DNA of 58,523 nt, taken from contig JBAXLH010000005.1 in NCBI GenBank assembly GCA_037134875.1, positions 1-58,523 on the forward strand. Reading direction: 5' to 3'. The notes beneath the pieces are model-generated. The model searched no databases. It had not been told where the DNA came from and worked only from the letters and a program-made list of their open reading frames with translations. The stretch comes from a bacterium (GTDB lineage: Bacteria > Patescibacteriota > Minisyncoccia > Phycocordibacterales > DATDWN01). Position numbers and translations under genes: made by a program. Each line of letters starts with the position of its first letter. Within the stretch, counting starts at the first letter, position 1. Of the stretch, positions 39,008-53,496 are shown in pieces.

Positions 39008-39017
39008 ATTGTTTAAA

Positions 39018-39857
39018 TTAAAGTAATTCTATTTCCTCTCTGACCTTTTGTGCTTCTTCACCTCTCACCCCGACAGTTTCAAGTATGTCAGGATTTTCCA
39101 AAATCGTTTTACACAGAACAATACCAGCATTCAAAAGCTCCTTTTTGGCGTGACCATCGAGAGTTGTGAGACATGTGAGTGGATGAAGTTTTGTCTCCAA
39201 AATCATATCGTGCAAGTTGCCGTGTGTCGGATAATTCCAACCAATCATCACGAGACGATTGCCTTGATGTGATCCATATTCTATCGCTGTACTCGTAAAT
39301 TTTGTATTTGTCACAAGCCATCCCTCATCGAGCTGTCTACCTTTTTTGCCGTAATCAAATGTTTGAGTACTGAGATCATCAAATCTTTCTTTGACATACA
39401 GTGCAATTTTCAAATCGGATTTAACACCGAGTTGATTGTGAAATTTTGCCTCTACCATAATAAGTTTCTCTGGATTCCATGCCACTACATCTATTTCGTG
39501 TTCAACATACTGACCCTTCACAATCTGACCCGTAAGAGTTTCAAAACCTTTTGTTTTTAAAATTTCAGCAACATAGTCCTCGAATGGAAAACCCGACGGA
39601 CCGAGCTCCATAATCGCTCGCTTGAGAGAATATCGTATTGCAACTGGTCGATCATCTGAATGGAGAAGTTCGAATGCTTTATTATAAATATCCCGAGTAG
39701 TCATTCCATCAGTCAGCGTATCTGTGATAGTACTCAAAATTGACTCTATTATTTTTGAGTTTGCACCAGCGTGCCTGAGTGAGTGTTCGAGCTTTGCTAC
39801 ATCAAACTGCTCTTTTGTCCCATCAAACTTTATAATATAAATTGGTTCCGTATTCAT
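39018..39857 (-). CDS. ATP-cone + Mrr-like PD-(D/E)xK nuclease fusion
   Basis: IIKFDGTKEQFDVAKL ATP-cone; GFPFEDYV...HEIDVVA...VEAK nuclease motifs. Confidence 0.8.
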   Translation of the reverse strand: MNTEPIYIIKFDGTKEQFDVAKLEHSLRHAGANSKIIESILSTITDTLTDGMTTRDIYNKAFELLHSDDRPVAIRYSLKRAIMELGPSGFPFEDYVAEILKTKGFETLTGQIVKGQYVEHEIDVVAWNPEKLIMVEAKFHNQLGVKSDLKIALYVKERFDDLSTQTFDYGKKGRQLDEGWLVTNTKFTSTAIEYGSHQGNRLVMIGWNYPTHGNLHDMILETKLHPLTCLTTLDGHAKKELLNAGIVLCKTILENPDILETVGVRGEEAQKVREEIELL

Positions 39858-39901
39858 ACGGTTATTATCGCATATATACAGTTTGGAGCAAACAGTATAG
39901 T

Positions 39902-41107
39902 TTAGGCTACTTTTTCAATAATTCCCCCACCGAGACAAACCTCTCCGGTATACAAAACAGCAGATTGACCGACAGCTACACCATTTTGAGGCACTTCAAA
40001 ATCAATACAATATTCATTATCTTGTTTTGTAACAGTACACCGTTGTTTTTCTTGTCTGTATCTAATTCGCACAGAACAGACAAAAGGAAAAGCTGGTTCT
40101 TGTCCGGAAATGAAATGCAAATTTTTGACAGTGATTTTTTTGGTTGAAAAAACAGTTTCTTTTTCTGTCTCTTTGTCTGCAACAGTAATCGTATTTTTTT
40201 CCAAATCTTTTGACACCACAAAAAGTTTTGGACTGTTTGCGGTTTTTTTGATTATTTCAAATCCATGACGCTCACCGATGGTAGAAAATATTGCACCGTT
40301 GTGTTTGCCGATGACTTCACCTTTTGTATTTAGAACATCGCCAGGTTTTTCTGAAATATAATGAGCCAAAAATTCCTTCATATCGAGTTTACCCAGAAAA
40401 CAAACTCCTTGACTATCTTTTTTGGTAGCTGTCGGCAAGCCAAACTTCTCAGCGAGCGTTCTGACTTCCGGCTTAGTCATTCCACCAATAGGAAAAAGAA
40501 TATGTGAGAGCTGGTCTTGACTTAGTGTGTACAGAAAATATGACTGATCTTTGTTTTTGTCGACAGATTCGTGGAGCTCAAAAAACTCAAAATCTTTTGA
40601 ATGGGAATGTTCTGACGGAACATTGCGCAGGCCGACGGGCTGAGCACGAAGAAATTTGCCAGCAGGCAAATATTCTGTTTCCGGCAGAATATTCCCTGAA
40701 AAATATTTTGAGTTTTTATGCACCACGGCATAGTGTCCCGTCGCAACATAATCAGCTCCCATTTCAAGAGCTTTTTTGAGAAAAACACCGAACTTTACAT
40801 ACTTGTTACAAAACACGTCCGGGTTTGGTGTGCGACCGACGCGATATTCGTTTATCATATAATCTGCAACCTCTTTTTTATATTCTTCCTGACAGTCCAG
40901 TGTTATAAACGGTACACCGAGCGTCGCACAAACTCGCATTGCATCCCGTCGTTCTTCTCGCCAATTACACTCAAGAAAATCAGGATTCCAAACACGCAAA
41001 AAAACTCCAGTCACATCGTAGCCCTGTCTTTTGAGCAAAGCCAAAGCAACAGAGCTATCCACTCCACCAGAAACTCCCACAAAAACTTTTTTTCCTTTTG
41101 AGACCAT
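39902..41107 (-). CDS. mnmA: tRNA 2-thiouridylase MnmA with a ~40-aa insertion
   Basis: SGGVDS, TPNPDVFCN, ATGHY, KDQSYFL and SQGVCF. Confidence 0.96.
   Translation of the reverse strand: MVSKGKKVFVGVSGGVDSSVALALLKRQGYDVTGVFLRVWNPDFLECNWREERRDAMRVCATLGVPFITLDCQEEYKKEVADYMINEYRVGRTPNPDVFCNKYVKFGVFLKKALEMGADYVATGHYAVVHKNSKYFSGNILPETEYLPAGKFLRAQPVGLRNVPSEHSHSKDFEFFELHESVDKNKDQSYFLYTLSQDQLSHILFPIGGMTKPEVRTLAEKFGLPTATKKDSQGVCFLGKLDMKEFLAHYISEKPGDVLNTKGEVIGKHNGAIFSTIGERHGFEIIKKTANSPKLFVVSKDLEKNTITVADKETEKETVFSTKKITVKNLHFISGQEPAFPFVCSVRIRYRQEKQRCTVTKQDNEYCIDFEVPQNGVAVGQSAVLYTGEVCLGGGIIEKVA
40581..40717. repeat. Palindromic element inserted in-frame in mnmA
   Basis: Perfect 13-bp outer inverted repeat aaaaactcaaaat/attttgagttttt enclosing at least three hairpins. 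Confidence 0.8.
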
Positions 41108-41133
41108 TGAGGAATTTATACCACAAATTTAGA

Positions 41134-42126
41134 TTATTTCAAATACTTTGCTTTGTTTCTTTTATGTTCCTCAAATGTTTTGGCGTAATGTATCGTTCCG
41201 TTTTTTTCTGTCAGATAGTACAAATAATCCGACGTGACTGGAGTTGCAGCCGCAATAATAGCATTGACTCCCGGATTGCCGATCGGTCCCGGCGGTAAAC
41301 CTTTGTGTGTGTATGTGTTATACGGAGAATCAATTTTCAAATCTGCCAGTGTCAGATTGTATGTATTTTTTCCATTTATATACAGAAATGATGAGTCGAC
41401 TTGGAGAGGCATTCCGATAGATATTCTCTTCCATAGTATTCCGGAGACAGTCTGTCGATCTGCAGGCAACACTTCATCTTCCAAAATAGATGCCATTGTA
41501 ATAATGTCTGACAAACTTTTTCCAGATTTTTTTACTTCCGCCAACTGACTCACTTTTTGTTCAAAATTTTGATTCATCATTTGTATAATCTCTTTTGCTC
41601 CATATGATGGAGGAAGAAAATATGTATCAGGAAACAAATATCCCTCACGTGGTTTTGCAAGACTCAAAAATTCCGCTTTATTGAAATTTGTTAAGTTTTT
41701 CTCGAGATAATCCCCGATTTGCGACACAGTCCAACCCTCAGGAATCGTCACTTTGACTGCATTGATTCTAAACTGTCCAGCAACCAGTCGCTCAGCAAGG
41801 ACAAGAACATTTTCTTTTTGATCTAAGAGATAATCACCGGCAATTACCTTTTTTTCTCCTCCAAACAGAATAACGAGCGAACGGAAAAGAAATGTTGATT
41901 TAACAATATGACTATCTTTTAAATTTATACTTATTGACTGCAATGATTCACCAGAATGTATTGTGAGTGTACTACCTATCGGAAAATCAGAAGGAGCAGA
42001 AAAAATAAAAACCACGACAATTGACAGGACAAACGCAAAAGAAAAAGCAATCATTGCTTTTTTCTTTTCAGATGTAAACTCAGAAAAATAATGTCTCAGT
42101 TTTTCGATCCAGATTTTGTAATCCAT
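41134..42126 (-). CDS. mltG: Endolytic transglycosylase MltG
   Basis: TM anchor, IPEG, EGYLFPDTY, ASILEDE, LQVD, SPYNTY and GLPPGPIGNPG. Confidence 0.93.
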   Translation of the reverse strand: MDYKIWIEKLRHYFSEFTSEKKKAMIAFSFAFVLSIVVVFIFSAPSDFPIGSTLTIHSGESLQSISINLKDSHIVKSTFLFRSLVILFGGEKKVIAGDYLLDQKENVLVLAERLVAGQFRINAVKVTIPEGWTVSQIGDYLEKNLTNFNKAEFLSLAKPREGYLFPDTYFLPPSYGAKEIIQMMNQNFEQKVSQLAEVKKSGKSLSDIITMASILEDEVLPADRQTVSGILWKRISIGMPLQVDSSFLYINGKNTYNLTLADLKIDSPYNTYTHKGLPPGPIGNPGVNAIIAAATPVTSDYLYYLTEKNGTIHYAKTFEEHKRNKAKYLK

Positions 42127-42137
42127 TGTTGATACTT

Positions 42138-43373
42138 TTATATAGGCAAATTTTGAGGAGCCTCGGCTTTTCGAGAACCGATTCTCTCAAATGTAGGCGT
42201 TGCTGATACACCACCTGGGAAATGATAGACTGTCGCCAATTCTTCACTATTCAAAACAAAAACTCCCCTTTTGTATGGTTTATAGAAAAACTGTCTGCGT
42301 TTATATGCATCGAACATTACCCCTTTTTCAAAATTGGCAACTTTATCTTTTCTATCTATCCATGGATACTTTTTTGATCCAGCAATTGTTGGTTTGAATG
42401 CATTCAAATTATTTGAATTAAAATGTGTAATACCACCAATCACTCCGCCAATATTACTTCTATCAAATATATCTTTTGGAGCCATATAAATAGCCCTCAT
42501 TCCCACATCAAATCCGGGCTTTGAAATACTTCTCTCGAGTGCTTTTACTGTTTCCATTTCACCGTCTGTCAAAAGTCTACCTTTATCCTCTTTGCCTGTT
42601 GCATCATCTTTTTTACCTTTCGTTCCTTCATAAATTTTATCTATTTCCACCTTGGCTGCTTTCGCCCATGCAAGATCAACAAGTTTACCTGTTACTGGGT
42701 CTTTGTCTGTCGCTTTGTGTGCACGAACGACAATCTGAAACCATGCTTGATGACCTTTTTTGAGAGTACCGAAAAATTCAATGAGAGGAGTGAGTGGATC
42801 AATCTTATATTCTTCTTTTGGATCTTTGTCCATTCCGTAGTCAACATATGTTTTGATAGGAAACACATCAGCTTTAGTCAAACCAAATTCGCATGTCATC
42901 ATTCCTACCGTCGCAGGATCAAAACTCATAGGTAGTGTGTAGTCTGGGACTTCGTATATTTCTATACCTGGATATTGTGAATACAAGTTTGCTTCAATCG
43001 CATTTCTGTAAGATTTTCGTGTCCAGATAAAGAAATGAACCTCGCCACCAATCGATACAATCTCCAGAGAAAACCATGGTCGAGTCGAGCCTTTCCACCA
43101 ATCCAAAAACCAGTTTCCATCTCCAAACGGCTGATTGAGTCCTGCAATCATAAACTCCATTGCTCGTGGAGATTTAAAAATTTCTTTTGGGAGTTTAATC
43201 TCGAGCAAAATATATGTCTGCTTTGCAAAAAACATAGCTCGCCTCCAGTCTACCCACAGCTCAAAAGCAAGAATAAAAAGTAACACAGGCAACCATACAA
43301 AAGATGTGTAATAAAGAATTTTGAATACCTCCACTACATTATGATTGGCAAATATATTAAAAATAGAATTCAT
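42138..43373 (-). CDS. Conserved hypothetical membrane protein (CPR-type)
   Basis: N-terminal TM helix, WFSLEI, YSQYP, YPIKTY-like FPIKTY and EELATVYHFP; resembles N-terminal regions of CPR VirD4-like proteins (by eye only). Confidence 0.65.
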   Translation of the reverse strand: MNSIFNIFANHNVVEVFKILYYTSFVWLPVLLFILAFELWVDWRRAMFFAKQTYILLEIKLPKEIFKSPRAMEFMIAGLNQPFGDGNWFLDWWKGSTRPWFSLEIVSIGGEVHFFIWTRKSYRNAIEANLYSQYPGIEIYEVPDYTLPMSFDPATVGMMTCEFGLTKADVFPIKTYVDYGMDKDPKEEYKIDPLTPLIEFFGTLKKGHQAWFQIVVRAHKATDKDPVTGKLVDLAWAKAAKVEIDKIYEGTKGKKDDATGKEDKGRLLTDGEMETVKALERSISKPGFDVGMRAIYMAPKDIFDRSNIGGVIGGITHFNSNNLNAFKPTIAGSKKYPWIDRKDKVANFEKGVMFDAYKRRQFFYKPYKRGVFVLNSEELATVYHFPGGVSATPTFERIGSRKAEAPQNLPI

Positions 43374-43392
43374 ATAAAAATAATTATATCAC

Positions 43393-43428
43393 AATCAAAA
43401 AACTTCCCAAATGGGAAGTTTTTTGATT
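43393..43428. terminator. 17-bp perfect inverted repeat, probable terminator
   Basis: aatcaaaaaacttccca-aa-tgggaagttttttgatt. Confidence 0.75.
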
Positions 43429-44465
43429 TACGCAATACTGTATTTACCGTCTTTTGATTTCTTGAAATATTTTGTGTTCTGAAGGTTTACCATAATCGTG
43501 TTTTCCTTTACATATCTTTCCTTCAAAACCTTTTCAACAACTTCTTCTTTTGTCAGTGGGCCGTTCTTTTCGATAACACCTTTGATAACATCCTTTACAA
43601 CGCCAGACATATATCCCCATTCTGCGAGTGCATAGAGTCCTCTGCCGACGAGCACAAATCGAGGATCTTTGATAAGTTCATTGTGTGTTGTTGCTACGTG
43701 AGCTTTCTTTTTGAAAACCTCTGTAATGAGTTTTGCAACTTCTCGGAAGTGAATTGGAGAACCGTGTCGTCTGATGACGAGGAATGCATAGTCTCGCATA
43801 CCTTTTGCTTTGATATTTGGAGAATCTGCCTTACCCCATTCGCCGAGTGGGTTTTTGTCGATGAGTTTTGAGAGCGCGAGCCATCGTTTTGCAATTTCCT
43901 CTTTTTTATATTTGTCTGCAACATCTTTGAGATTTTCCAAAAACTTCTCAATCATATCTGCTTCGAGCAAAATCTCATCATCTGACAAGTTTGAATACAA
44001 ATCACGAAGTGACTCATGAATTCTCTTTGAGAGATCCTTGTCAACATGCCATCTGTGTTTGAATTCGTCGTCTTCTTTTTCTTTTATGAAATCTTCACCA
44101 ACAATGAGCAAAAAGTGGAGGTGGTTTTGGATTGATTTGTCTTTTGAGAGATGATTCAAAAGATCTTCTTCGGAAATGACAGCTCCGAGACCCTCAACAA
44201 TAGCTTTGAGCTCATCAAACACAGGTTTTTCTTTTGTGTATTCTTTTGATTTGCGAATACTTGCAATAGAATAGTTTTCTATCTGTCTCACTCGCTCTCG
44301 TGTGATTTTGTATTTCTTTCCGATTGCTTCGAGAGTCATCTTTCGAGTTTCGTTTCCGAGACCGAGACGATTGATCAAAACGTCCTGGGCTCTCTGTGAG
44401 AGAACTGAAAGAAGTTTCTTTGTAACCTGCTTTGGCTTAAATGTTATTGGTGATTTTTCGCTCAT
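43428..44465 (-). CDS. Sigma70 region-4-like HTH fused to C-terminal winged HTH (HARE-HTH-like)
   Basis: TLEAIGKKYKITRERVRQIE; PIHFREVAKLI...HNELIKDPRFVLVGRGLYALAEWG; no sigma region 2 seen. Confidence 0.8.
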   Translation of the reverse strand: MSEKSPITFKPKQVTKKLLSVLSQRAQDVLINRLGLGNETRKMTLEAIGKKYKITRERVRQIENYSIASIRKSKEYTKEKPVFDELKAIVEGLGAVISEEDLLNHLSKDKSIQNHLHFLLIVGEDFIKEKEDDEFKHRWHVDKDLSKRIHESLRDLYSNLSDDEILLEADMIEKFLENLKDVADKYKKEEIAKRWLALSKLIDKNPLGEWGKADSPNIKAKGMRDYAFLVIRRHGSPIHFREVAKLITEVFKKKAHVATTHNELIKDPRFVLVGRGLYALAEWGYMSGVVKDVIKGVIEKNGPLTKEEVVEKVLKERYVKENTIMVNLQNTKYFKKSKDGKYSIA

Positions 44466-44563
44466 AAATAATGTAATAATGTTTTAATAATTTTTATAAC
44501 CTAAATCGTATAGTCTATTTCTATCACTATTAGTCATTTTCGTCAAGTGCCTGTCAAGATTTT

Positions 44564-47464
44564 CTACACCACGACAAAATTAACAAGTCTATTCGCTACA
44601 TAAATGGTTTTTTTGATTTCTTTACCCAAAAGCCACTTGTCTACCTCTGGAAGTTTTTTGGCAATATCTACTATTTCATCCTGTGCAGTTCCTCCAGGAA
44701 CAGAGCATTCTGCCCGTACTTTTCCATTGATTTGAATCATAATTTTGATCTCTGTTTCAACAATTTTTTTCGGATCCGCTTTTGGCCATTTTTCGATGGA
44801 AATCAAGGTTTTGTTTCCTATAGCGTGCCAAATTTCTTCTGTAATATGTGGCGCAAACGGAGAGAGAATTTTGAGAAACATTTCAAAATCCTCTTTGTTT
44901 ATTTTCTCCAATTTTTCAGCCTCATTTAGGAAAATCATCATTCCAGAAATGGCTGTGTTGAATCCCATTTTTTCAATATCATCAGAAACTTTTTTGAGTG
45001 TCTTATGGAGAAGTGTTTCAAATTTTTGATCAGGTGTTGTATTTTTTACAACACGAAACTGAAGTCGCCAGACGCGGTCAAGAAATCTTCGGGCACCAAT
45101 AATATTTTGCTCATCCCAACCAATCGCCTGATCAAATGGGCCCATAAACATTTCGTACATTCGGAGCGTATCGGCACCATATGCTTTTACAATATCATCG
45201 GGATTTACCACATTTCCGCGAGACTTGCTCATTTTTTCCCCACCCTTTGCAAGAATCATTCCATGAGATGTACGTTTTTTGTACGGTTCTGAAAATGGCA
45301 CAAGTCCAATATCAAACAAAAACTTGTTCCAAAATCGTGAGTAGAGCAAATGGAGTGTTGTATGTTCCATTCCACCGTTGTACCAGTCCACTTGCATCCA
45401 CTTTTTCATTTTTTTCATATCCGCAAACTTCTTTGAATTTTTTGGATCTGTGTATCGCAAGAAATACCACGAACTTCCCGCCCAGTTTGGCATTGTGTCT
45501 GTCTCGCGTTTTGCCTTCCCACCACATGTTGGACATTTTATATTGACCCACTTTGAAATACTGGCGAGTGGTGACTCCCCTGTATCTGTCGGCTCATATT
45601 TTGTAACTTTTGGAAGAGTTAGTGGTAAGTCCTTTTCTTTGAGGGGCACAATTCCACAGTCCGGACAATGTACAACCGGAATCGGTTCACCCCAATATCT
45701 CTGACGAGAAAACACCCAATCTCGCAATTTGAATTTTGTTACTGATTTTCCGTGAACAAATTTTGTGATTTCTTTTTTAGCCTTTTCACTATCTGTTCCA
45801 TTAAATCTTCCAGAGTTAATCATCAATCCGTTTCCTAAATAAGATGAACTAACAAAAATATTTTTATCACTCGTTTTGTCAAACCCTAATTCAATAATCC
45901 TGGCTATTGAATTCGTAATAAACCACACCCAATGATCATTATCATGACCACCATTATGTGCAAGTATGTTATCCAACAATTCTTTGCCCGAAACCCAAGT
46001 TAAATCAAAATCTTCATGTTCTTCATGATGTACCTTTTTTTCCTCTGTGCTATTCAAAATAACGAGAAAACAGGTTGCCCAAGCAGAGCGATTAACTTTT
46101 CGTAAACTATTATAATAGTGAGTATATGCTGTGCCAACAAATTCAACTTTTTTAAAATCATACAGACCACTTTCCTCCTCAACTTCACGAAGAATGCCAG
46201 TTTTAATATCTTCGCCACTATCTACTCCACCAGAAAACAGTCTAAAAGCACCGTTTTTTTGGAGGCCGACTGCGTATTTTTGTGTTTTTGGATCAAAAAC
46301 AATTCCACATCCACCATTTCTCTCTTCTTCATTTTCTCTCTTGAGACCAAATTCAGGAGCTATGACTTGTTTTATTGGTAGTTCATACTTCTTTGCAAAC
46401 GCAAAATCACGTTCGTCGTGAGCGGGCACAGCCATTACGCTACCTGTACCATATGTTGCAAGTACATAGTCAGCAATAAAGACCGGAATTTCTTCGTTGG
46501 TTGCAGGATTTATTGCCTGTACACCACGGAGTAGGACTCCTGTCTTTTCTTTTTCATCGGCAGTACGCTCTATCTCAGCTTTCTTTTTTGAATCAGAAAT
46601 ATATGTTTCTACCTCACTCCAGTTTGTAATTTGATTTTTGAGTTTCTGTACAAACTCGTGTTCCGGCGCAAGTACAACATATGTCGCTCCGAAAATTGTG
46701 TCTGGTCGAGTTGTAAAAACTTTTATTTTTTCGGAAATTTTTTTGAGTGCAAATTCAATTTCTGCGCCCTCGCTCCGTCCAATCCAATTTCTCTGCTGAA
46801 GTTTTATTTTTTCCAAATAGTCGACAGTATCCAAATCTCTATCTAATTTGTCTGCATACTTTGTAATCCGAAGCATCCACTGTTCCTTCTCACGTTTTTC
46901 TACCGGAGTACCACATCGCTCACAACAACCGTTTACAACCTCCTCGTTTGCAAGACCGATTTTATCCTTTGGACACCAATTTATATTTATTTTTGCTTTG
47001 TATGCCAGATCATGTTTCAAAAATTGCAAGAAAATCCACTGCGTCCATCTGTAATATTTTGGATCAGTTGTGTTTATTTCTCGTGACCAATCAAAAGACA
47101 TCCCGAGACCTTTAAATTGTTTTCTGAAATTGTCTGTATTTTTCTGTGTGACTTTTGCCGGCTGGATTCCGGTTTTGATAGCATAATTCTCTGTGGGAAG
47201 TCCGAATGCATCCCAACCTATTGGAAATAGAACATTTGCCCCGTTCATTCGTTTCTTGCGCGAAATAATATCCATCGCAGTATATCCGCGAACATGGCCG
47301 GTATGAAGTCCATCTCCTGATGGATATGGAAATTCCATAAGTCCATAAAATTTTTGTTTTTTTGAAGTATCAGAAGCACGAAAAACTTTTTTCTTTTCCC
47401 ATTCTTTCTGCCATTTTGGCTCTATATTACTTGGCTCGTATTCCTTGGATATAGTTTTTTTCAT
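44564..47464 (-). CDS. leuS: Leucine--tRNA ligase with an inserted Nudix domain
   Basis: FPYPSGDGLHTGH, FTTRPDT, RDWVFSRQRYWG and KMSKS; start at ATG 47464. Confidence 0.97.
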   Translation of the reverse strand: MKKTISKEYEPSNIEPKWQKEWEKKKVFRASDTSKKQKFYGLMEFPYPSGDGLHTGHVRGYTAMDIISRKKRMNGANVLFPIGWDAFGLPTENYAIKTGIQPAKVTQKNTDNFRKQFKGLGMSFDWSREINTTDPKYYRWTQWIFLQFLKHDLAYKAKININWCPKDKIGLANEEVVNGCCERCGTPVEKREKEQWMLRITKYADKLDRDLDTVDYLEKIKLQQRNWIGRSEGAEIEFALKKISEKIKVFTTRPDTIFGATYVVLAPEHEFVQKLKNQITNWSEVETYISDSKKKAEIERTADEKEKTGVLLRGVQAINPATNEEIPVFIADYVLATYGTGSVMAVPAHDERDFAFAKKYELPIKQVIAPEFGLKRENEEERNGGCGIVFDPKTQKYAVGLQKNGAFRLFSGGVDSGEDIKTGILREVEEESGLYDFKKVEFVGTAYTHYYNSLRKVNRSAWATCFLVILNSTEEKKVHHEEHEDFDLTWVSGKELLDNILAHNGGHDNDHWVWFITNSIARIIELGFDKTSDKNIFVSSSYLGNGLMINSGRFNGTDSEKAKKEITKFVHGKSVTKFKLRDWVFSRQRYWGEPIPVVHCPDCGIVPLKEKDLPLTLPKVTKYEPTDTGESPLASISKWVNIKCPTCGGKAKRETDTMPNWAGSSWYFLRYTDPKNSKKFADMKKMKKWMQVDWYNGGMEHTTLHLLYSRFWNKFLFDIGLVPFSEPYKKRTSHGMILAKGGEKMSKSRGNVVNPDDIVKAYGADTLRMYEMFMGPFDQAIGWDEQNIIGARRFLDRVWRLQFRVVKNTTPDQKFETLLHKTLKKVSDDIEKMGFNTAISGMMIFLNEAEKLEKINKEDFEMFLKILSPFAPHITEEIWHAIGNKTLISIEKWPKADPKKIVETEIKIMIQINGKVRAECSVPGGTAQDEIVDIAKKLPEVDKWLLGKEIKKTIYVANRLVNFVVV

Positions 47465-47553
47465 AATACTCAGTATGCCAAAAAACCCGCATAAAATCAA
47501 AGTGTCAAGGACTTGCCCTGACACTTTTGATTATTTTAATTTTGTTTTACTTT

Positions 47554-48528
47554 CTACTGTTTTACAGGCATTGCTGGAATGGCTTTTGGCTGAATATATT
47601 GATTTGCTGGAATTGTTTTATCAAAACAATATCGTCCTGCTGGATGTGACCAATCCGTAGCAGTTGTATCATAGTAAAGTGGCACAGCATATTGATTTTT
47701 TTGAGATGCTTTGTTGAATTCTGCACAGAGCTGATATGCCTTTGCACTCTGCCCTATCAAAATATACTCATACATTCTGTTTGTTTGTTTATCAGAACAC
47801 ATACCACTATTGGAGCTCTGAACACAACCGAGATCATTTATAGAGCTAGGTAAACTTGCATGAAGTGAATAATAATTTGTTACAAGATAATCCATATTTT
47901 GAAGATCATTTACTTTTTGTTCATCATATTTGAGAAGTTGTTGTGTGCGAGGTGAACCAAGAACAGAAAATCCCCAAATGATTGAACCGAGTACAATCAC
48001 GAATGCGACAATCATCCAAACTTTTTTTGACATAGATGTAAGCTTTCCTCTGATATCTGAAATGTAGTAGAGAAATACGGCAAGAGCAATCACAAACACA
48101 ACAAGCACTTTGAGCAAAAAGCTCGCAGTGAGTTCCTGACCATCAATAAAGTAATACAAGACAGTCACGAGGTCGCCAGCGAGAGTGAGCCCGGCAATGA
48201 AAAGTGTAATATATGTCAGCCACTTTCGAATACCTATATTCTTGCGTTCTGGCTCGGTAGCATATTCTCTTTCCAAAATCCACATAAGTAAGATATATAT
48301 TGGAAAGAAAATAATAAGAGTTGCTACAGGAAAACTGATTGATGGTGTGTAATATGAATAATATGTATTTACTATTTGTGGAAACGCTGTGTTAATTACA
48401 ATAAACAGGATATTGATAAGATTTCCTATCACAGTAAACAGTGCGACTATCGCGCCAAGATTGAGAAAAAAATCTTTGGGAGATGATTTTGACTTTACGC
48501 TTACATTTTGCATTTGATTTGGTTCCAT
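47554..48528 (-). CDS. DUF5671-like membrane protein with a pilin-like C-terminal region
   Basis: SSPKDFFL, five TM helices, IRKWLTYITLF, GSPR...DEQKVNDLQ and YQLCAEF. Confidence 0.65.
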   Translation of the reverse strand: MEPNQMQNVSVKSKSSPKDFFLNLGAIVALFTVIGNLINILFIVINTAFPQIVNTYYSYYTPSISFPVATLIIFFPIYILLMWILEREYATEPERKNIGIRKWLTYITLFIAGLTLAGDLVTVLYYFIDGQELTASFLLKVLVVFVIALAVFLYYISDIRGKLTSMSKKVWMIVAFVIVLGSIIWGFSVLGSPRTQQLLKYDEQKVNDLQNMDYLVTNYYSLHASLPSSINDLGCVQSSNSGMCSDKQTNRMYEYILIGQSAKAYQLCAEFNKASQKNQYAVPLYYDTTATDWSHPAGRYCFDKTIPANQYIQPKAIPAMPVKQ

Positions 48529-48601
48529 AATAAAAAGTTAATTATTAATTATTAGTATTATACCATTTATTTAAAGAAAAACCCTAGACAGTGTCCGGGG
48601 A

Positions 48602-48838
48602 TTAATTTTTGGATAGTTTAGATTCGATCTGTTTGAATAGTTCCAATTTACGCCAGAAAAGGTACACATCCCATGCGTTGAAACAAAACAAAAGAAACAT
48701 CAAAAAACTTATAAAATATTCTTTCTTAAAAAAAAGAATAGAAGAATAAAAAATAGAACCCACAGAAAGAAGAAGTCTAATATAAAAAAGAATGGTTGCC
48801 TTTCTTTTACTCATATTGGTCTGATAAAAGAATAGCAC
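48602..48838 (-). CDS. Small membrane protein
   Basis: Two hydrophobic helices. Confidence 0.5.
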   Translation of the reverse strand: MLFFYQTNMSKRKATILFYIRLLLSVGSIFYSSILFFKKEYFISFLMFLLFCFNAWDVYLFWRKLELFKQIESKLSKN

Positions 48839-48852
48839 TTTTTAGGGAAAAA

Positions 48853-49950
48853 TCAAATTCTAAACTCAATCACATCCCCATCTTTGACTATGTACTCTTT
48901 ACCTTCCGTACGTACCAAACCTTTCTCACGAGCCTGACCATATGAGCCAGCATTGAGAAGATCAGACCAAAAGACCACCTCTGCTCGAATAAATTTTTCT
49001 TTGAAATCAGTGTGAATTGCCATGCCAGCAACCGGCGCAGTAGATCCTCGCAAAATAGTCCATGCCCGCGACTCATCCTCACCCGTAGTAAAATATGTAA
49101 TCAAATTGAGCAGTGTGTATCCGGAAGTGATGAGACTATTTATTCCATCATCTTTTCCTCCGAGCTCTGTTCGAAACATTTCCTTTTCCTCCCCTTCCAA
49201 ATCTTTTAGCTCCTCCTCGATTTTGGCGTCGACAATCACATACTGAAAATTATTTTGTTTCAAAAACTCCAAAAGTTTTGTAAATCTTTCATCTCCCATT
49301 TCATCCAAATTTCTCCCGCCAGCTTTTTTGTTGAGCGCATACATTATCGGTTTTGCTGTGAGCAGGTGTAAATTTCTAACAATGAGAATTTCTTTTTCAT
49401 CAAAATCGAGTGTGTGTATGAGTTTTCCGCCCTGCAAATGCGATTCTATTTTTTTCAAAACATCATTTTCAAAAATTGCCTCTTTTTTATTTGCTTTGAC
49501 ATCCTTTTGAACACCGCCAAGTCTTTTTGAAACTGTTTCTTGGTCCGCTAGTACAAGCTCGAGGTTGATAACTTCAATATCGGAAACAGGATCAACTTTG
49601 TTGTGTACGTGAATAATATTGTCGTCTTCGAAAATTCTGACAACCTCTACAATCGCATCTACCTCGCGAATATTTTGTAAAAATTTATTTCCGAGACCTT
49701 CACCCTCCGATGCACCTTTGACAAGACCCGCAATATCGACAAATTCCACTACTGCGGGAATGGTTTTTTTGCTTTTTGAAAATTCCGAAAGCTTCCAGAG
49801 TCTTTCGTCTGGAACAGGCACAATTCCCACTGACGGATCAATAGTACAAAATGGGTAATTCTCCGCCGACACTGACTTTTTTGTAAGTGCGTTAAAGAGA
49901 GTCGATTTTCCGACGTTTGGCAGACCTACGATTCCGATGGATAGTGACAT
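48853..49950 (-). CDS. ychF: Ribosome-binding ATPase YchF
   Basis: GIVGLPNVGKST, NYPFCTIDP, DIAGLVKGAS and TGS domain. Confidence 0.97.
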   Translation of the reverse strand: MSLSIGIVGLPNVGKSTLFNALTKKSVSAENYPFCTIDPSVGIVPVPDERLWKLSEFSKSKKTIPAVVEFVDIAGLVKGASEGEGLGNKFLQNIREVDAIVEVVRIFEDDNIIHVHNKVDPVSDIEVINLELVLADQETVSKRLGGVQKDVKANKKEAIFENDVLKKIESHLQGGKLIHTLDFDEKEILIVRNLHLLTAKPIMYALNKKAGGRNLDEMGDERFTKLLEFLKQNNFQYVIVDAKIEEELKDLEGEEKEMFRTELGGKDDGINSLITSGYTLLNLITYFTTGEDESRAWTILRGSTAPVAGMAIHTDFKEKFIRAEVVFWSDLLNAGSYGQAREKGLVRTEGKEYIVKDGDVIEFRI

Positions 49951-49985
49951 AGCTTAAAGATAGCGAAAAAAGTGATGAAAGTAAA

Positions 49986-50477
49986 TCACATCTTGTTTTT
50001 CATTTCGATAGCTCGCTTCACAATATGATCCCCGATTTCTCCCCATTTCACATACTGGTCATACTCTTTGGGATCAATCAGTTTAATTTCTGAAATGTCA
50101 CCGTCCGGATCTGACACAAAATCTCCGTAGGGTTCAACAATACAAAATGACCGAGTTTGTCGTATCGTGCGATCTTTCTCGTATACATCTATATAACCAA
50201 TCAATTCCTGATGGAGAACTTTCATATTTGATTCTTCTTTTACTTCGCGCACTACAGCCTCCTCATACGTTTCTCCTTTTTCTATACCACCGCCCGGAAA
50301 TGTCCAATATCCTTTATCTTGCGCATACACCACAACCAGTTTATCTCCACAAAAACAAAAACCATGTACGGCTTGTAGAATTTTTCCATCTAGCCCTTCT
50401 AGCGGATCAAATCCTTCTCTGTACACATATTCATACATCTGCCCGTCACGACCCTTGAATTGTGATTTGATTTCCAT
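49986..50477 (-). CDS. Nudix hydrolase, paralog of 20005-20505
   Basis: GGGIEKGETYEEAVVREVKEESNM; start at ATG 50477. Confidence 0.88.
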   Translation of the reverse strand: MEIKSQFKGRDGQMYEYVYREGFDPLEGLDGKILQAVHGFCFCGDKLVVVYAQDKGYWTFPGGGIEKGETYEEAVVREVKEESNMKVLHQELIGYIDVYEKDRTIRQTRSFCIVEPYGDFVSDPDGDISEIKLIDPKEYDQYVKWGEIGDHIVKRAIEMKNKM

Positions 50478-50484
50478 ATTAATT

Positions 50485-50616
50485 TTATTGTACCAGAGAT
50501 TTTGGATTTGCTTCTTTTTGATATACAAATGGTTTGATGTTCCCCCACTTTTCCACTATTGGTGTGATGTAGTGCCACTCTGCCAAGATTTCATCTGTGC
50601 TTGTAAAAACAGTATC
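50485..50616 (-). pseudogene. zwf: 3' remnant of glucose-6-phosphate dehydrogenase
   Basis: Hand translation DTVFTSTDEILAEWHYITPIVEKWGNIKPFVYQKEANPKSLVQ* matches the G6PD C-terminal pattern D-x-T-L-F-x-x-x-D-E-V-x-x-x-W-x-x-I-x-P-I-x-x-x-W; no start codon. Confidence 0.65.
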
Positions 50617-50618
50617 AC

Positions 50619-51836
50619 TTACTTTAATACGTTCCAAATGGCCGGATCGGCACCTCCATCAATTTTGAAAATTGAAATTCCTCGAACGCCGAGCTTTTTT
50701 GCCAGAGCAATTTTATCCTTCACTGCCTGTGCGTCACTCCACACGAGCAGTCGAAATGGTGCGGATACCTGTGGAGAAGTCGTCGCTCCACCACTCGAGC
50801 TCGTCACAGCTGACTGACCAAAAAGAGATGTGTCGAGTGAAGGTGTTGTTGTGGCGAGTGTGGTTGATGTTGTCACAAGAGGAGTCGATGTTGGTGTATA
50901 AATAAGATTGAGCTCGCCCGCAACACTTCGTGATGATGCAACACCAAAAGCTGATGCAATACTGAGCGCGTAGTTTGGATTGAATGATGTTTCTCTATCA
51001 TACACATATCCACCCTGGACTGGTGTGACAGTGTATTCGTAGCCGTATGTCGCAACACCGATCGTAATTTTCTTTTTTGATATTGTTTTGGATGCAAGTG
51101 TAATAACCTTTTCCACCCATTTTGGATCAGAGACTGGCACGTACGGACCACTTGAAAGAGCATTGAGTTTCAAATCAACCGTACCTTGATCATATGTCAT
51201 AATACGAACACGATCACAATATTTATTTATCTCAACATAATCATTTGCATATTGAATATCTTTTGGAATCATCACAAAACGTGAGTCAAGCGGAGTGCGC
51301 GCCTCGATTGTACACGAAACAATTTTATTGCCGATTGAATTCCACAACTCTTTCAGAAAAAGTGAAAAATATTTTTTTGTTTCTGCTGATTTTCCCTCGT
51401 AGTCAATATCGACTCCATCAAAATTGTTGCTTTTTACCATTGTCACAATAGCCTGTATATGAGCTTTGCGTTTTGTTGGACTCTTGAGCGTTGCGTATAT
51501 ATTGTCTGCATTGCTCCACATTACTGTTGGAATTATTTTGACTTTGTTTGCCTTTGCAGTCTGAATAAGTGTTGTCCATGGTTCCTGTCCAATATTCATC
51601 GGATCATACAACGTCCCATCGAGCTTGACCGTGTAGCCAAACGGACTAAGTTCTTTAAAAACAGAAATATGATTTATTGCTTCGGCTGTTCCCGTAGCAG
51701 TACGCCAATATGGTATCCAGCCAGAAATTTCTAGCGGAATCACCGCGACTTTTTTTGTTGTCACAGCAGAAACAGTACTCGACATACATACGAGACAGAG
51801 GAGTAAGAAAATTTTTAGGAGAGATGTTGATTTCAT
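50619..51836 (-). CDS. Secreted glycoside hydrolase family 18
   Basis: Signal peptide; intact FDGVDIDYE (DxxDxDxE); IMTYD; S/T-rich insert; start at ATG 51836. Confidence 0.9.
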   Translation of the reverse strand: MKSTSLLKIFLLLCLVCMSSTVSAVTTKKVAVIPLEISGWIPYWRTATGTAEAINHISVFKELSPFGYTVKLDGTLYDPMNIGQEPWTTLIQTAKANKVKIIPTVMWSNADNIYATLKSPTKRKAHIQAIVTMVKSNNFDGVDIDYEGKSAETKKYFSLFLKELWNSIGNKIVSCTIEARTPLDSRFVMIPKDIQYANDYVEINKYCDRVRIMTYDQGTVDLKLNALSSGPYVPVSDPKWVEKVITLASKTISKKKITIGVATYGYEYTVTPVQGGYVYDRETSFNPNYALSIASAFGVASSRSVAGELNLIYTPTSTPLVTTSTTLATTTPSLDTSLFGQSAVTSSSGGATTSPQVSAPFRLLVWSDAQAVKDKIALAKKLGVRGISIFKIDGGADPAIWNVLK

Positions 51837-51845
51837 ATGATTTGA

Positions 51846-52015
51846 ATAAAAGGACAACCTAAAATAATTTTTGGAGACTCCGCAGGCCGTGAGCATGGTC
51901 TTGTCAACGACCGAGCGAAGCGAGGCTCATTGACAAGTTACGGTCGAGGACAGCCGAGAATGCTCGCAGGAGCATTCGAGGTTGCTCCAGAAATTATTTT
52001 AGATTGTCCTTTTAT
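51846..52015. repeat. Palindromic repeat element, copy B
   Basis: 31-bp outer inverted repeat with 2 mismatches (51846-51876 / 51985-52015); core aligns with 26806-26871. Confidence 0.85.
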
Positions 52016-52027
52016 CTATTTAATTTC

Positions 52028-52252
52028 TCACACCAACTTCTTCAAATCCACCTCATACCTTTTCACAACTTCCATAGTAGCAGACATTTGGTCCTTGCCT
52101 TTTTTCATCTCTTCCTGTACTTCAAGACCAATTTTTTGAAATAGTTCTGGATCTTTTTCGAGCATAGCAAACACTTTGTCCTGTTCGGCTTGTGGTACAC
52201 CCTTCATCTGGTTTGATAACATTTTTCGCATTAAGAAATTTTTTATGGACAT
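52028..52252 (-). CDS. Small helical hypothetical protein
   Basis: Clean ORF with a K/E/M-rich helical pattern. Confidence 0.7.
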   Translation of the reverse strand: MSIKNFLMRKMLSNQMKGVPQAEQDKVFAMLEKDPELFQKIGLEVQEEMKKGKDQMSATMEVVKRYEVDLKKLV

Positions 52253-52296
52253 ATATTTATTTACAACTTTTTATTTTTCTATGGTATCATAAATTT

Positions 52297-53097
52297 ATGA
52301 AATGGAGAATCATATTATCACTTTTTGCAGTCCTCGGAATTGTAGGCTGTGGCCTTGTTGGAACTGTCCTATACTATCATTTTGACTGGAGTGACTTGGC
52401 AGATATTTCTTTCTACGAAAATCTTGCAAACCCTTCTATGCGCATAGTCCGTGTACAGGAAGGACTTCGAAAAGAACAGGTTGCAGATGTGCTTGGTAGT
52501 AAGCTCGGATGGGATGATGCAGAAAAAAATCAATTTGTGAATGCACACCTCGCCCTCAATACAACAAACTCAGAAGGATACTACTTCCCAAAGAGCTATA
52601 TCATTCAAAAAGACGAGGGACCAATAACTATTAGTAATTTGATGTTTGATGAATTTCAAAAGCAAACAAGTAAAATCATAAAACCAAAGAAAACAAAAAT
52701 TGTAAACGAAGACACCGCACTCAAGATTGCCTCTATTATACAACGAGAAGCGGCTGGTAAAAATGACATGCGACTTATTTCAGGTATTATTTGGAATCGT
52801 ATTTTCAAAGGTATGAAGCTCCAAATGGATGCCACTTTGCAATATGCCAAAGGAACCGAGAATGATTGGTGGCCACAGGTTGATCCAAAAGACAAACAGA
52901 TTGATTCTCCATACAACACATATATGTATCCATCACTTCCTCCATCTCCTATTGCTAATCCTGGCCTTGCAGCTATCGAGGCAGCATATAATCCCCAACC
53001 AACAAATTGCCTCTTTTATTTACACGATAAAAAAGGACAGATCCATTGCTCGGCAACGTACGAAGGTCACAAAGCAAATATCGCAAGGTATTATTAA
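52297..53097 (+). CDS. mltG: Second MltG-like endolytic transglycosylase
   Basis: TM anchor, EGYYFPKSY, ASIIQRE, LQMDAT, SPYNTY and LPPSPIANPG; start at ATG 52297. Confidence 0.88.
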   Translation: MKWRIILSLFAVLGIVGCGLVGTVLYYHFDWSDLADISFYENLANPSMRIVRVQEGLRKEQVADVLGSKLGWDDAEKNQFVNAHLALNTTNSEGYYFPKSYIIQKDEGPITISNLMFDEFQKQTSKIIKPKKTKIVNEDTALKIASIIQREAAGKNDMRLISGIIWNRIFKGMKLQMDATLQYAKGTENDWWPQVDPKDKQIDSPYNTYMYPSLPPSPIANPGLAAIEAAYNPQPTNCLFYLHDKKGQIHCSATYEGHKANIARYY

Positions 53098-53100
53098 AAT

Positions 53101-53496
53101 CTAGTTAAATGTAATTTCAAATGGGTACATTCCCATTCCACAGGTTCCTCTGAATACTCCGACAGGTTGCGAACCGATATCAATATCTGTTGAGCTTGAT
53201 GATTGAAGAATTTTTGATAGATTCATACTTGGAATTCGAATAGAAGCGGAACAATCAAATGTTCCGTTTGTTGTTACCCGCAAAATAGTTGGAACACCTG
53301 CCTTGGCTACACTTTTTCTCGGAGAATATCCTCCGCGGGCAGTCAGCTCCACAATCTGTGTACCATTCTGGATTGTCACATTGTTTTGTTGCTCGAGATT
53401 TGTATTATTTCCAGTTCCACCAGAGTTTCGCGACAAGAAAACAGCACCAAAAATGAGTAAGAGAGAAATAATAATGGAAATAATGGTGGCTTTCAT
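53101..53496 (-). CDS. Membrane-anchored cupredoxin-domain protein
   Basis: GGYSP, FDCSA and GTCGMGMY. Confidence 0.85.
   Translation of the reverse strand: MKATIISIIISLLLIFGAVFLSRNSGGTGNNTNLEQQNNVTIQNGTQIVELTARGGYSPRKSVAKAGVPTILRVTTNGTFDCSASIRIPSMNLSKILQSSSSTDIDIGSQPVGVFRGTCGMGMYPFEITFN

What the first reader, a model, noticed from the sequence alone, without database searches (positions are those of the whole stretch)
45840..46345. Complete Nudix hydrolase domain inserted into LeuRS
Between LPIKQVIAP and YLGNGLMINSG, at the end of the CP1 editing domain, lie about 165 extra residues with a perfect Nudix box, GGVDSGEDIKTGILREVEEESGL (GX5EX7REUXEEXGU). aaRSs are established sources of Ap4A and PPi, so a built-in Nudix could hydrolyse dinucleoside polyphosphates or mis-activated adenylates at the source.
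Basis: partly seen in the sequence, partly recalled or inferred. Interest (0 to 1): 0.7.

Follow-up and report, generated by a model that had tools for sequence, protein, structure and literature searches.

The report
Nudix hydrolase nested inside LeuRS editing domain
The leucyl-tRNA synthetase of this lake-water Patescibacteria (CPR) bacterium really does carry a complete, apparently active Nudix hydrolase folded inside its proofreading domain; the same arrangement occurs in over a hundred related sequence clusters, has not been described in the papers searched, and its substrate is unknown.

Summary
Confirmed. The gene at 44564..47464 (-) is a canonical bacterial-type LeuRS. A surface loop of its CP1 editing domain holds a complete ~165-170 aa Nudix module (45842..46357) with a perfect Nudix box, a confident predicted fold (pLDDT 91) and a Pfam score above threshold.

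It is not a misassembly. The identical protein is on three independent assemblies, and contigs from four lake metagenomes span both junctions.

It is not sporadic. 107 of the 150 best 50%-identity cluster representatives carry a Nudix at this same site, and 90 of those have a strict box.

Two sequence classes share the site. The window's rarer class B is 57-66% identical to a widespread free-standing 165-180 aa Patescibacterial Nudix.

Close relatives, including a syntenic ortholog (76% identity), have no insert. The module's similarities do not follow those of the LeuRS backbone.

Other lineages carry alpha/beta-hydrolase, GNAT or DUF559 domains at this site or at a second CP1 site.

Best reading: an autonomous pyrophosphohydrolase riding in a permissive CP1 loop. 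Its substrate is unassigned; an ApnA/RppH-like activity is the weak best guess. I found no paper on this architecture.

The parts
44564..47464 (-). leuS coding sequence, 966 aa from ATG (the ORF extends to a GTG at 47524, 986 aa). Bacterial-type leucyl-tRNA synthetase.
   Evidence: ORF list. NCBIfam TIGR00396 leuS_bact scores 1024.7 bits against a cut-off of 548.4. AF2 model has pLDDT 90.1 and pTM 0.81. Foldseek TM about 0.8 to T. thermophilus and E. coli LeuRS. The identical 966-aa product is called on 3 assemblies.
47294..47305 (-). HIGH signature (HTGH) of the class I catalytic site
   Evidence: Motif position. H54, G56 and H57 are invariant in the 101-sequence alignment.
46358..46792 (-). 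CP1 editing domain, N-terminal part (PF13603 profile 1-162)
   Evidence: Pfam tRNA-synt_1_2, 223.6 bits, residues 245-409 of the 986-aa ORF.
46697..46714 (-). Thr-rich editing motif TTRPDT
   Evidence: T251, T252, R253, T256 invariant in relatives with or without the insert.
46406..46423 (-). Editing-site motif AHDERD (conserved Asp)
   Evidence: D350, R352, D353 invariant.
45866..46357 (-). Nested Nudix hydrolase module, PEFGLKRE...ELGFDKTSD (class B). Collinear with whole free-standing 165-180 aa Nudix proteins.
   Evidence: Pfam NUDIX above its gathering score. Alignments A1 and A2 with free-standing homologs at 57-66% identity. AF2 pLDDT 91.3, pTM 0.87. Foldseek probability 1.0 to many Nudix structures.
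46163..46231 (-). Nudix box GGVDSGEDIKTGILREVEEESGL (catalytic and metal-binding REx2EE glutamates)
   Evidence: Key positions are conserved in 86 insert-bearing LeuRS: E1 and E3 100%, E2 97%, strict box 74/86.
46103..46120 (-). X-loop region HYYNSL, 15-20 residues after the box. Aromatic pair at +16/+17, with a basic residue at +21 just beyond this stretch; probable substrate-specificity loop.
   Evidence: In all 86 insert-bearing LeuRS: Tyr/Phe 100% at +16, Tyr/Phe 92% at +17, Lys/Arg 100% at +21. His and Tyr are near invariant in the free-standing family. The X-loop concept comes from PMC5389931.
45920..46024 (-). Family-specific motifs EEHEDF and DHWVWF, and the start of the C-terminal helical extension that class A inserts lack
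   Evidence: Invariant columns in A2. Class A versus class B alignment. Helices H493-503 and H507-525 in the full-length model.
45842..45865 (-). Linker KNIFVSSS returning to CP1
   Evidence: Alignment with the insert-free ortholog. Low pLDDT in the isolated module but above 90 in the full-length model.
45758..45841 (-). CP1 editing domain, C-terminal part (YLGNGLMINSGRFNG... ; PF13603 profile about 163-183)
   Evidence: In-silico deletion of the insert restores a contiguous PF13603 match 1-183/185 at 227.1 bits.
45221..45235 (-). KMSKS catalytic loop
   Evidence: K744 and K747 are invariant; M745, S746 and S748 are nearly invariant.
44687..45031 (-). Anticodon-binding domain (PF08264)
   Evidence: Pfam Anticodon_1, 81.4 bits, residues 832-946.

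Best explanation
SHOWN:
- The gene is the ordinary bacterial-type LeuRS of a lake-water Paceibacteria (Patescibacteria/CPR) bacterium.
- A variable surface loop of its CP1 editing domain lies between the strand LPIKQVI and the strand GLMINSG. That loop contains a complete Nudix hydrolase module with all catalytic residues.
- The LeuRS synthetic and editing motifs are untouched.
- Related modules sit at exactly this site in more than 100 sequence clusters of Patescibacterial LeuRS. They fall into two sequence classes.
- Modules of both classes also exist as free-standing 160-190 aa proteins.
- Close orthologs lack the insert.
- The module's similarities are discordant with those of the LeuRS backbone.

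INFERRED:
- The module folds independently and protrudes from CP1.
- It acts as an autonomous Mg2+-dependent pyrophosphohydrolase on a nucleotide-derived substrate. The weak best guess is a dinucleoside or nucleoside polyphosphate (ApnA/RppH-like), judged from the aromatic X-loop.
- Nesting it in LeuRS gives co-expression and co-localisation with the translation apparatus. It does not take part in aminoacylation or editing chemistry.
- The CP1 loop is a permissive landing site. Modules are gained, lost, swapped and occasionally released from it as separate genes.
For: Real and intact:
- Single ORF, perfect box and Pfam hit above threshold.
- Identical protein on 3 assemblies, and contigs from 4 runs spanning both junctions.
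- AF2 pLDDT 91 for the module, and 93-97 for the same residues in the full-length model.
- Nudix fold matches in the PDB and LeuRS fold matches with TM about 0.8.
- Editing and synthetic motifs are invariant across relatives with and without the insert.

Widespread and under selection:
- 107 of the 150 best 50%-cluster representatives have a Nudix at this site, and 90 have a strict box.
- Of the 119 closest LeuRS, 91 carry an insert (about 78 class A, 13 class B) and 28 carry none.
- The REx2EE glutamates are 97-100% conserved.

Autonomy:
- Free-standing proteins at 57-66% identity are collinear with the whole insert.
- In GTDB species representatives, 70 of the best 80 loci are free-standing and 10 are nested in LeuRS, all from different assemblies.
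- Neighbours of the free genes vary. They recurrently include other Nudix genes, CYTH, NDK, an HD phosphohydrolase, NADAR and an ABC-F-type double ABC ATPase, which suggests nucleotide housekeeping.

Dispensable and modular:
- The syntenic ortholog P0275 (76% identity) has 8 residues in place of the insert.
- The window's backbone is closest to insert-free and class A relatives on both sides of the junction, while the insert is closest to class B and free forms.
- Insert GC3 is 0.227, against 0.273-0.413 in the rest of leuS.
- The same loop or a second CP1 site holds alpha/beta-hydrolase, GNAT, DUF559 or other Nudix domains in other lineages.
- P0390 is a free-standing gene made of CP1 flanks plus a Nudix, lying beside an IS200/IS605 transposase. 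This shows release from leuS has happened.
Against: - No activity was measured, and no characterised family could be assigned. NCBIfam RppH models score 17-24 bits against cut-offs of 116-139. PDB sequence hits are no better than E 4e-4. Foldseek TM is only 0.5-0.6 to Nudix enzymes of several different specificities.
- The tools returned no model coordinates. I could not determine how the Nudix active site is oriented relative to the editing pocket, the synthetic site or the tRNA path.
- Persistence at one fixed site in over 100 clusters, and apparent re-acquisition at that same site, could instead reflect a LeuRS-specific functional coupling.
- The trees are neighbour-joining without support values. 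Directions of gain, loss and swap are therefore suggestive only.
- Mutual exclusivity of free and nested copies within a genome could not be tested properly.
Confidence: 0.7

Rival explanations
1. Coupled by-product clearance. The nested Nudix hydrolyses Ap4A and related dinucleoside polyphosphates made by LeuRS itself, so the synthetase removes its own signalling by-product where it is made.
For: - Tyr/Phe at +16/+17 after the box, where ApnA hydrolases carry a marker Tyr (PMC5389931).
- The best, though sub-threshold, NCBIfam hits are RppH, which also cleaves Ap4A and Np4A caps.
- RppH with bound Ap4A (7sp3) and the Aquifex Ap4A hydrolase (3i7u) are among the fold matches.
- The module stays at one site of one synthetase across over 100 clusters.
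Against: - The same module is free-standing in most related genomes, and close orthologs lack it.
- The insert sits in CP1, which in solved LeuRS structures is a separate domain from the synthetic site where Ap4A would form (established knowledge). The distance was not measured here.
- GNAT, alpha/beta-hydrolase and DUF559 domains occupy the same loops elsewhere. This argues for a permissive site rather than Ap4A-specific logic.
- Fold matches to ADP-ribose, NADH and oxidised-NTP enzymes are equally good.
Confidence: 0.2
2. Regulatory or RNA-directed role. The Nudix acts on an RNA 5' end (triphosphate, or an NAD or Np4A cap) or binds a nucleotide signal, and so modulates LeuRS or tRNA-Leu handling.
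For: - E. coli RppH is among the top structural matches, and RppH gives the best NCBIfam hits.
- LeuRS brings RNA close to the module (inference).
- An ABC-F-type ATPase (translation-factor family) lies within three genes of the free-standing homolog in 11 of 70 loci.
Against: - All scores to RppH are far below the family cut-offs.
- No RNA-binding extension was detected.
- The insert is dispensable in close relatives.
- Mature tRNA has a 5' monophosphate (established knowledge).
Confidence: 0.08
3. Neutral or selfish passenger. The insert is tolerated in a permissive loop of an essential gene, confers nothing, and is on its way to decay.
For: - Presence/absence differences among close relatives, and a module history discordant with the backbone.
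- A REase-like DUF559 domain is inserted in a related LeuRS.
- About 14% of inserts have a variant box, mostly GX5E to Q and R to M/A.
Against: - Catalytic glutamates are 97-100% conserved over deep divergence, and family-specific motifs outside the box are conserved too.
- No intein, Hint or homing-endonuclease domain is detected in the window's protein.
- A 22/30 inverted repeat flanks the insert in the window, but it is absent from nine other class B genes.
Confidence: 0.05
4. Assembly chimera or frameshift artefact joining a Nudix gene to leuS.
For: None beyond the prior that metagenome assemblies can be chimeric.
Against: - The insert is in frame at both junctions within one domain.
- The identical protein occurs on three independent assemblies.
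- Contigs from four runs cross both junctions with no alternative joints.
- Over 100 homologous LeuRS have the same architecture.
Confidence: 0.01

Closest known systems
Free-standing Patescibacterial Nudix family (e.g. P0001, P0005, P0008; database names 'NUDIX domain-containing protein' or 'MutT family'; uncharacterised)
   Same: 57-66% identical to the insert and collinear with it from PEFG to ELGYDxTS. Same box type (REVxEESGL), the same HYYNSLRKVNR, EEHExF and DHWIYF motifs, and the same phylum.
   Different: These are separate 165-180 aa genes in variable neighbourhoods, not next to leuS. No member has a known substrate.
Class A Nudix insert of most Paceibacterial LeuRS (e.g. Candidatus Nomurabacteria LeuRS P0356 and P0359, annotated only as leucine--tRNA ligase)
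   Same: Same insertion point. Intact box in most members. Shared extra-box features: PExG...NEE..R at the start, an aromatic pair at +16/+17, Lys at +21.
   Different: Only 23-30% identical to the window's module. Box ends in EETGY. About 10-20 residues shorter and lacks the C-terminal helical extension.
Canonical bacterial LeuRS (T. thermophilus 2bte, E. coli 4aq7)
   Same: Same overall fold (TM about 0.8, 33-36% identity). HIGH, KMSKS and CP1 editing motifs are present.
   Different: No matched solved LeuRS chain is long enough to hold an extra domain (621-876 residues). From memory, not tested here: E. coli and Thermus have about 20 variable residues in this loop.
Class I synthetases with an extra enzyme domain, e.g. 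NCBIfam NF040702 'isoleucine--tRNA ligase, N-acetyltransferase domain-containing'
   Same: A class Ia aaRS polypeptide carrying an unrelated catalytic domain (the model is listed).
   Different: A different synthetase and a different domain. I did not check where the GNAT sits in that IleRS. Here the extra domain is nested inside the editing domain.
RppH/NudH and Nudix Ap4A hydrolases (E. coli RppH 4s2x and 7sp3; Aquifex 3i7u)
   Same: Nudix fold, similar size, and an aromatic residue in the X-loop position associated with ApnA activity.
   Different: 13-16% identity, TM 0.5-0.6. NCBIfam RppH scores of 17-24 bits against cut-offs of 116-139. Membership not met.

Membership tests
Nudix hydrolase superfamily (PF00293) | Nudix box GX5EX7REUXEEXGU with the REx2EE glutamates | tested here: met
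   GGVDSGEDIKTGILREVEEESGL matches at every position.
Nudix hydrolase superfamily (PF00293) | Profile score above Pfam's gathering score | tested here: met
   37.8 bits in the whole protein and 41.8 bits for the insert alone, against 21.1.
Nudix hydrolase superfamily (PF00293) | Nudix alpha/beta/alpha fold | tested here: met
   AF2 pLDDT 91.3. 571 PDB matches at E<=0.001; every one of the 50 listed is a Nudix enzyme at probability 1.0.
Nudix hydrolase superfamily (PF00293) | Mg2+-dependent hydrolysis of a nucleoside diphosphate linked to X | not testable with these tools
   Needs an enzyme assay.
Bacterial-type leucyl-tRNA synthetase (TIGR00396) | Equivalog profile score above the curated cut-off | tested here: met
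   1024.7 bits against 548.4.
Bacterial-type leucyl-tRNA synthetase (TIGR00396) | HIGH and KMSKS signatures, and a CP1 editing domain with the Thr-rich and conserved-Asp motifs | tested here: met
   HTGH, KMSKS, TTRPDT and AHDERD are all present, and the motif positions are conserved across 101 relatives. PF13603 scores 223.6 bits.
RppH / Nudix ApnA hydrolases | Score above the NCBIfam RppH equivalog cut-offs | tested here: not met
   23.7, 19.4 and 17.5 bits against cut-offs of 118, 116 and 139.
RppH / Nudix ApnA hydrolases | Marker Tyr in the loop about 17 residues after the box (Dunn et al. 1999, as summarised in PMC5389931) | tested here: inconclusive
   Tyr at +16 and +17 in the window. 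Tyr is over 90% at +16 in the free family, but Phe dominates there in class A inserts. This is a correlate, not proof.
ADP-ribose diphosphatases / NADH diphosphatases (Nudix subfamilies) | Marker Pro, or the SQPWPFPQS motif, downstream of the box (PMC5389931) | tested here: not met
   The sequence after the box is YDFKKVEFVGTAYTHYYNSLRKVNRS. It has no Pro and no SQPWPFPQS. NCBIfam NudC scores 17.7 bits against a cut-off of 158.
Intein or homing-endonuclease insertion | Hint/intein splicing domain or endonuclease domain, and Cys/Ser/Thr nucleophiles at the junctions | tested here: not met
   Pfam finds only aaRS and NUDIX domains. The junctions read VIA|PEFG and FVSS|SYLG. The insert is fully accounted for by the Nudix homologs.

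The most novel reading that the evidence does not exclude
The CP1 editing domain of Patescibacterial LeuRS may be a modular docking platform for small enzymes: Nudix, sometimes two copies, alpha/beta-hydrolase, GNAT. On this reading the modules are functionally coupled to the synthetase's chemistry. The Nudix would clear Ap4A/Np4N or decap RNA at the enzyme. The modules would also move between nested and free-living states, and the widespread free-standing Nudix family would itself descend from a LeuRS insert.
Probability: 0.2. Interest if true: 0.8.

Novelty: new variant of a known kind. Interest (0 to 1): 0.62.

Why it matters
Synthetases with added domains are well known, mostly from eukaryotes. 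A second, catalytically intact enzyme folded inside the proofreading domain of a bacterial LeuRS has not been described in the literature searched. The large review of the Nudix clan does not mention tRNA synthetases at all.

Four reasons it could matter:
- If the Nudix is coupled to LeuRS, it would give a direct physical link between aminoacylation and dinucleotide or alarmone turnover, in organisms with minimal genomes.
- If it is not coupled, the locus is still a clean natural example of domain-in-domain insertion with repeated gain, loss, swapping and release. That is useful for understanding how new architectures arise in reduced genomes.
- The CP1 loop would be a candidate permissive site for protein engineering.
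- The architecture matters for annotation. These proteins are labelled only 'leucine--tRNA ligase' or 'class I tRNA ligase family protein', which hides a second enzyme.

Tried and rejected
1. Misassembly: rejected.

2. Intein or mobile element:
- No such domains were found.
- Direct-repeat families in the region are short and none brackets the insert.
- A 22/30 imperfect inverted repeat brackets the insert (45829-45858 and 46372-46401). It is rarer than in 299 of 300 random window pairs.
- It is absent from nine other class B leuS genes, so I treat it as chance or lineage-specific.

3. Substrate assignment by sequence or fold: led nowhere. PDB sequence search, NCBIfam and Foldseek gave only generic or sub-threshold Nudix matches of mixed specificity.

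4. Gene neighbourhood of the free-standing homologs: no single conserved partner and no link to leuS. Only a loose nucleotide-housekeeping theme appeared.

5. DNA-level definition of the insertion boundaries against the syntenic insert-free ortholog: at about 72% nucleotide identity the pair is too diverged to show a breakpoint.

6. Geometry of the Nudix relative to the editing site: structure prediction returns no coordinates or PAE, so this could not be measured.

All 80 kept loci come from different assemblies, which is consistent with one copy per genome but not a real test.

8. The third protein search, with a class A insert, returned only 7 hits because of the word prefilter. It was still enough to show free-standing class A relatives and the CP1-fragment gene P0390.

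9. Rfam and tRNA scans of the window: nothing found.
Full report
**1. What is in the sequence**

The minus strand carries one uninterrupted ORF, 44564..47524 (986 aa). The likely start is the ATG at 47464, giving 966 aa. That is the product called on three public assemblies.

Pfam finds the class I catalytic domain, the LeuRS editing domain PF13603 (223.6 bits, profile positions 1-162 of 185), a NUDIX domain (37.8 bits, gathering score 21.1) and the anticodon-binding domain. NCBIfam's bacterial leuS equivalog scores 1024.7 bits against a cut-off of 548.4.

The box GGVDSGEDIKTGILREVEEESGL (46163..46231) fits GX5EX7REUXEEXGU at every position.

The insert lies inside the editing domain, not at its end. 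Replacing it in silico with a four-residue loop restores a contiguous PF13603 match 1-183/185 (227 bits). A natural insert-free ortholog gives the same match.

**2. Not an artefact**

- The identical 966-aa protein is encoded on contigs from two Logan assemblies and one JGI metagenome.
- Contigs from four lake-water metagenome runs are identical over 45500..46700. Between them they cross both junctions, with no alternative joints.

**3. Integrity of both enzymes**

In a 101-sequence alignment of the closest LeuRS, several motifs are conserved whether or not an insert is present: the HIGH signature, KMSKS, the Thr-rich editing motif (TTRPDT) and the editing Asp motif (AHDERD).

AlphaFold2 models the full protein at pLDDT 90.1 and pTM 0.81. 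The nested module scores 93-97 in that model, and 91.3 (pTM 0.87) when modelled alone.

The full model matches T. thermophilus and E. coli LeuRS at TM about 0.8. None of the matched solved chains (621-876 residues) is long enough to hold an extra domain. The module matches many Nudix structures at probability 1.0, but only at TM 0.5-0.6 and 13-22% identity.

**4. Distribution**

An exhaustive profile search used 280 residues spanning the insert and both flanks. It returned 154 cluster representatives at E<=1e-30. Among the best 150:
- 107 are LeuRS sequences or fragments with a Nudix at this same site, and 90 of those have a strict box.
- 11 have a Nudix at a second, upstream CP1 site.
- 23 have no insert.

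Among the 119 closest LeuRS (57-77% identity; named sources include Candidatus Nomurabacteria, Paceibacterota, Minisyncoccia and Parcubacteria):
- about 78 carry a 'class A' insert of 150-165 residues (box ending EETGY);
- 13 carry a 'class B' insert of about 172 residues like the window's (box ending EESGL, with an extra C-terminal helical extension);
- 28 have 0-19 residues in the loop.

In the 86 insert-bearing sequences of the alignment, the REx2EE glutamates are 97-100% conserved and 74 have the strict box. The two classes also share features outside the box: a PExG...NEE..R start, Tyr/Phe at +16 and +17 after the box, and Lys/Arg at +21. This suggests common ancestry and a related substrate type.

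**5. Relation to free-standing genes**

The best 120 matches of the insert alone are all separate 160-206 aa (mostly 165-185 aa) Nudix proteins from Patescibacteria. They are 57-66% identical and collinear with the whole insert from PEFG to ELGYDxTS.

In GTDB species representatives, 131 loci encode a relative. Of the best 80, 70 are free-standing and 10 are nested in LeuRS. All 80 come from different assemblies.

The free genes are not next to leuS. Their neighbours vary but recurrently include other Nudix genes, CYTH, nucleoside diphosphate kinase, an HD phosphohydrolase, NADAR and an ABC-F-type ATPase.

Class A modules also have free-standing relatives. One of them, P0390, is a 278-aa gene beside an IS200/IS605 transposase. 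It aligns with LeuRS residues 317-561, that is, CP1 flanks on both sides of the Nudix, and its editing Asp motif has decayed. This is direct evidence that a leuS fragment carrying the module can become a separate gene.

**6. Modular history**

P0275 is an 808-aa LeuRS in the same gene order as the window: DUF5671 protein, leuS, Sigma70_r4/HARE-HTH protein, DUF8128 protein. It is 76% identical to the window's LeuRS and has 8 residues where the window has the module.

- In 40-residue windows along the alignment, the window's backbone is closest to insert-free and class A relatives on both sides of the junction. The insert itself is closest to class B and free forms, and only 14-46% identical to the class A inserts of those backbone relatives.
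- In a neighbour-joining backbone tree, class B and insert-free sequences are scattered.
- In a neighbour-joining tree of the module, class B inserts form a basal grade and nearly all the free-standing proteins form one nested clade (one, P0244, falls at the base of the grade). These trees have no support values and are suggestive only.
- The insert's GC3 (0.227) is lower than in any equal-sized window of the rest of leuS (0.273-0.413).

Together these point to gain, loss and replacement of the module independently of the backbone.

**7. A wider pattern**

In other Patescibacterial LeuRS, the same loop or a second site near the start of the editing domain holds other domains:
- Nudix domains that my scan with this family's module did not recognise;
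- an alpha/beta-hydrolase (PF06821);
- GNAT acetyltransferases;
- a DUF559 restriction-endonuclease-like domain.

Some proteins combine several, for example two Nudix domains plus a hydrolase. This favours the view that CP1 loops are permissive landing sites. A common theme of small-molecule or aminoacyl-ester chemistry cannot be excluded.

**8. How it most likely works**

*Shown:* a complete, well-folded Nudix domain with catalytic residues, nested in a variable loop of an otherwise canonical and intact LeuRS. It is widespread, conserved, dispensable in close relatives, and interchangeable with a free-standing form.

*Inferred:* it is an autonomous Mg2+-dependent pyrophosphohydrolase whose nesting provides co-expression and co-localisation with translation.

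*Substrate:* unassigned.
- Best NCBIfam hits are RppH models, far below cut-off.
- PDB sequence hits are marginal.
- Fold matches span RppH, AtNUDT7, NUDT15, ADP-ribose diphosphatases and an Ap4A hydrolase.
- The loop about 17 residues after the box is known to carry specificity markers: Tyr for ApnA hydrolases, Pro for ADP-ribose diphosphatases, SQPWPFPQS for NADH diphosphatases (PMC5389931). The window has Tyr-Tyr there and neither of the other markers.

I therefore rank an ApnA/RppH-like activity first, with low confidence.

Hydrolysis of aminoacyl-adenylates is unlikely because they lack a pyrophosphate bond (established knowledge).

**9. Comparison and novelty**

The protein is a member of the Nudix superfamily and of bacterial LeuRS; all testable defining features are met. 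It is not a member of the RppH, NudC or ADP-ribose diphosphatase families by their curated thresholds or markers.

The architecture is visible in public databases only as unremarked Pfam hits on proteins named 'leucine--tRNA ligase'. Six literature searches found no description of it.

I rate it a new variant of a known kind: a synthetase with an accessory domain, here a second enzyme nested in the editing domain. It is real, widespread and uncharacterised. Interest is moderately high. The mechanism remains open.

Noticed in passing
Related proteins P0284, P0340, P0300, P0303, P0341, P0245, P0262, P0240, P0260, P0265, P0239 (no window coordinates): Patescibacterial LeuRS CP1 is an insertion hot spot with two sites. 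Besides Nudix, the domains found there are alpha/beta-hydrolase (PF06821), GNAT acetyltransferases (one at each site in P0245), DUF559/MTES_1575 REase-like, and second Nudix domains. Some proteins reach 1300 aa or more.
   Followed up: partly
L090:1769-2605 and L091:1744-2580 (protein P0390): A free-standing 278-aa gene beside an IS200/IS605 Y1 transposase. It consists of the C-terminal part of a LeuRS editing domain with a nested class A Nudix, and the editing Asp motif has decayed. It is evidently a leuS fragment turned into a separate gene.
   Followed up: partly
window 49986..50528 (-) and 37388..37831 (-): Two further stand-alone Nudix genes of other families (Pfam NUDIX 54.6 and 94.8 bits). 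The second has the box GHFEWGEKLEGCAKRELEEETGI. There is no free-standing copy of the insert's own family in the 58.5 kb window.
   Followed up: partly
window 45829-45858 and 46372-46401: An imperfect 30-nt inverted repeat (22/30 complementary) brackets the Nudix insert. It is rarer than in 299 of 300 random window pairs of the same spacing, but absent from nine other class B leuS genes. It is probably chance or lineage-specific.
   Followed up: yes
window 45842..46357: The insert has markedly lower third-position GC (0.227) than any equal-sized stretch of the rest of leuS (0.273-0.413). This is consistent with a separate origin.
   Followed up: partly
window 42138..48528 versus L088 and L089: Gene order is conserved with a relative whose leuS has no insert: DUF5671 membrane protein, leuS, 345-aa Sigma70_r4/HARE-HTH protein, DUF8128 protein.
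   Followed up: partly
window 47465..47524: The ORF extends 20 codons upstream to a GTG, but all three public gene calls start at the ATG at 47464 (MKKTISKEY). The upstream stretch is probably not translated.
   Followed up: no
window 1..58523: No tRNA, tmRNA or Rfam family reaches threshold anywhere in the 58.5 kb.
   Followed up: no
L008-L087 record titles: Many GTDB representative contigs carrying this Paceibacteria-type Nudix are titled 'uncultured Candidatus Saccharibacteria', 'Gammaproteobacteria', 'Burkholderiales' or 'Bacteroidales'. These record names look unreliable for taxonomy.
   Followed up: no
Free-standing homolog loci L008-L087: An ABC-F-type double ABC ATPase lies within three genes of the free-standing Nudix in 11 of 70 loci. 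NDK lies immediately downstream in 5 loci, and CYTH domains occur in 9.
   Followed up: partly
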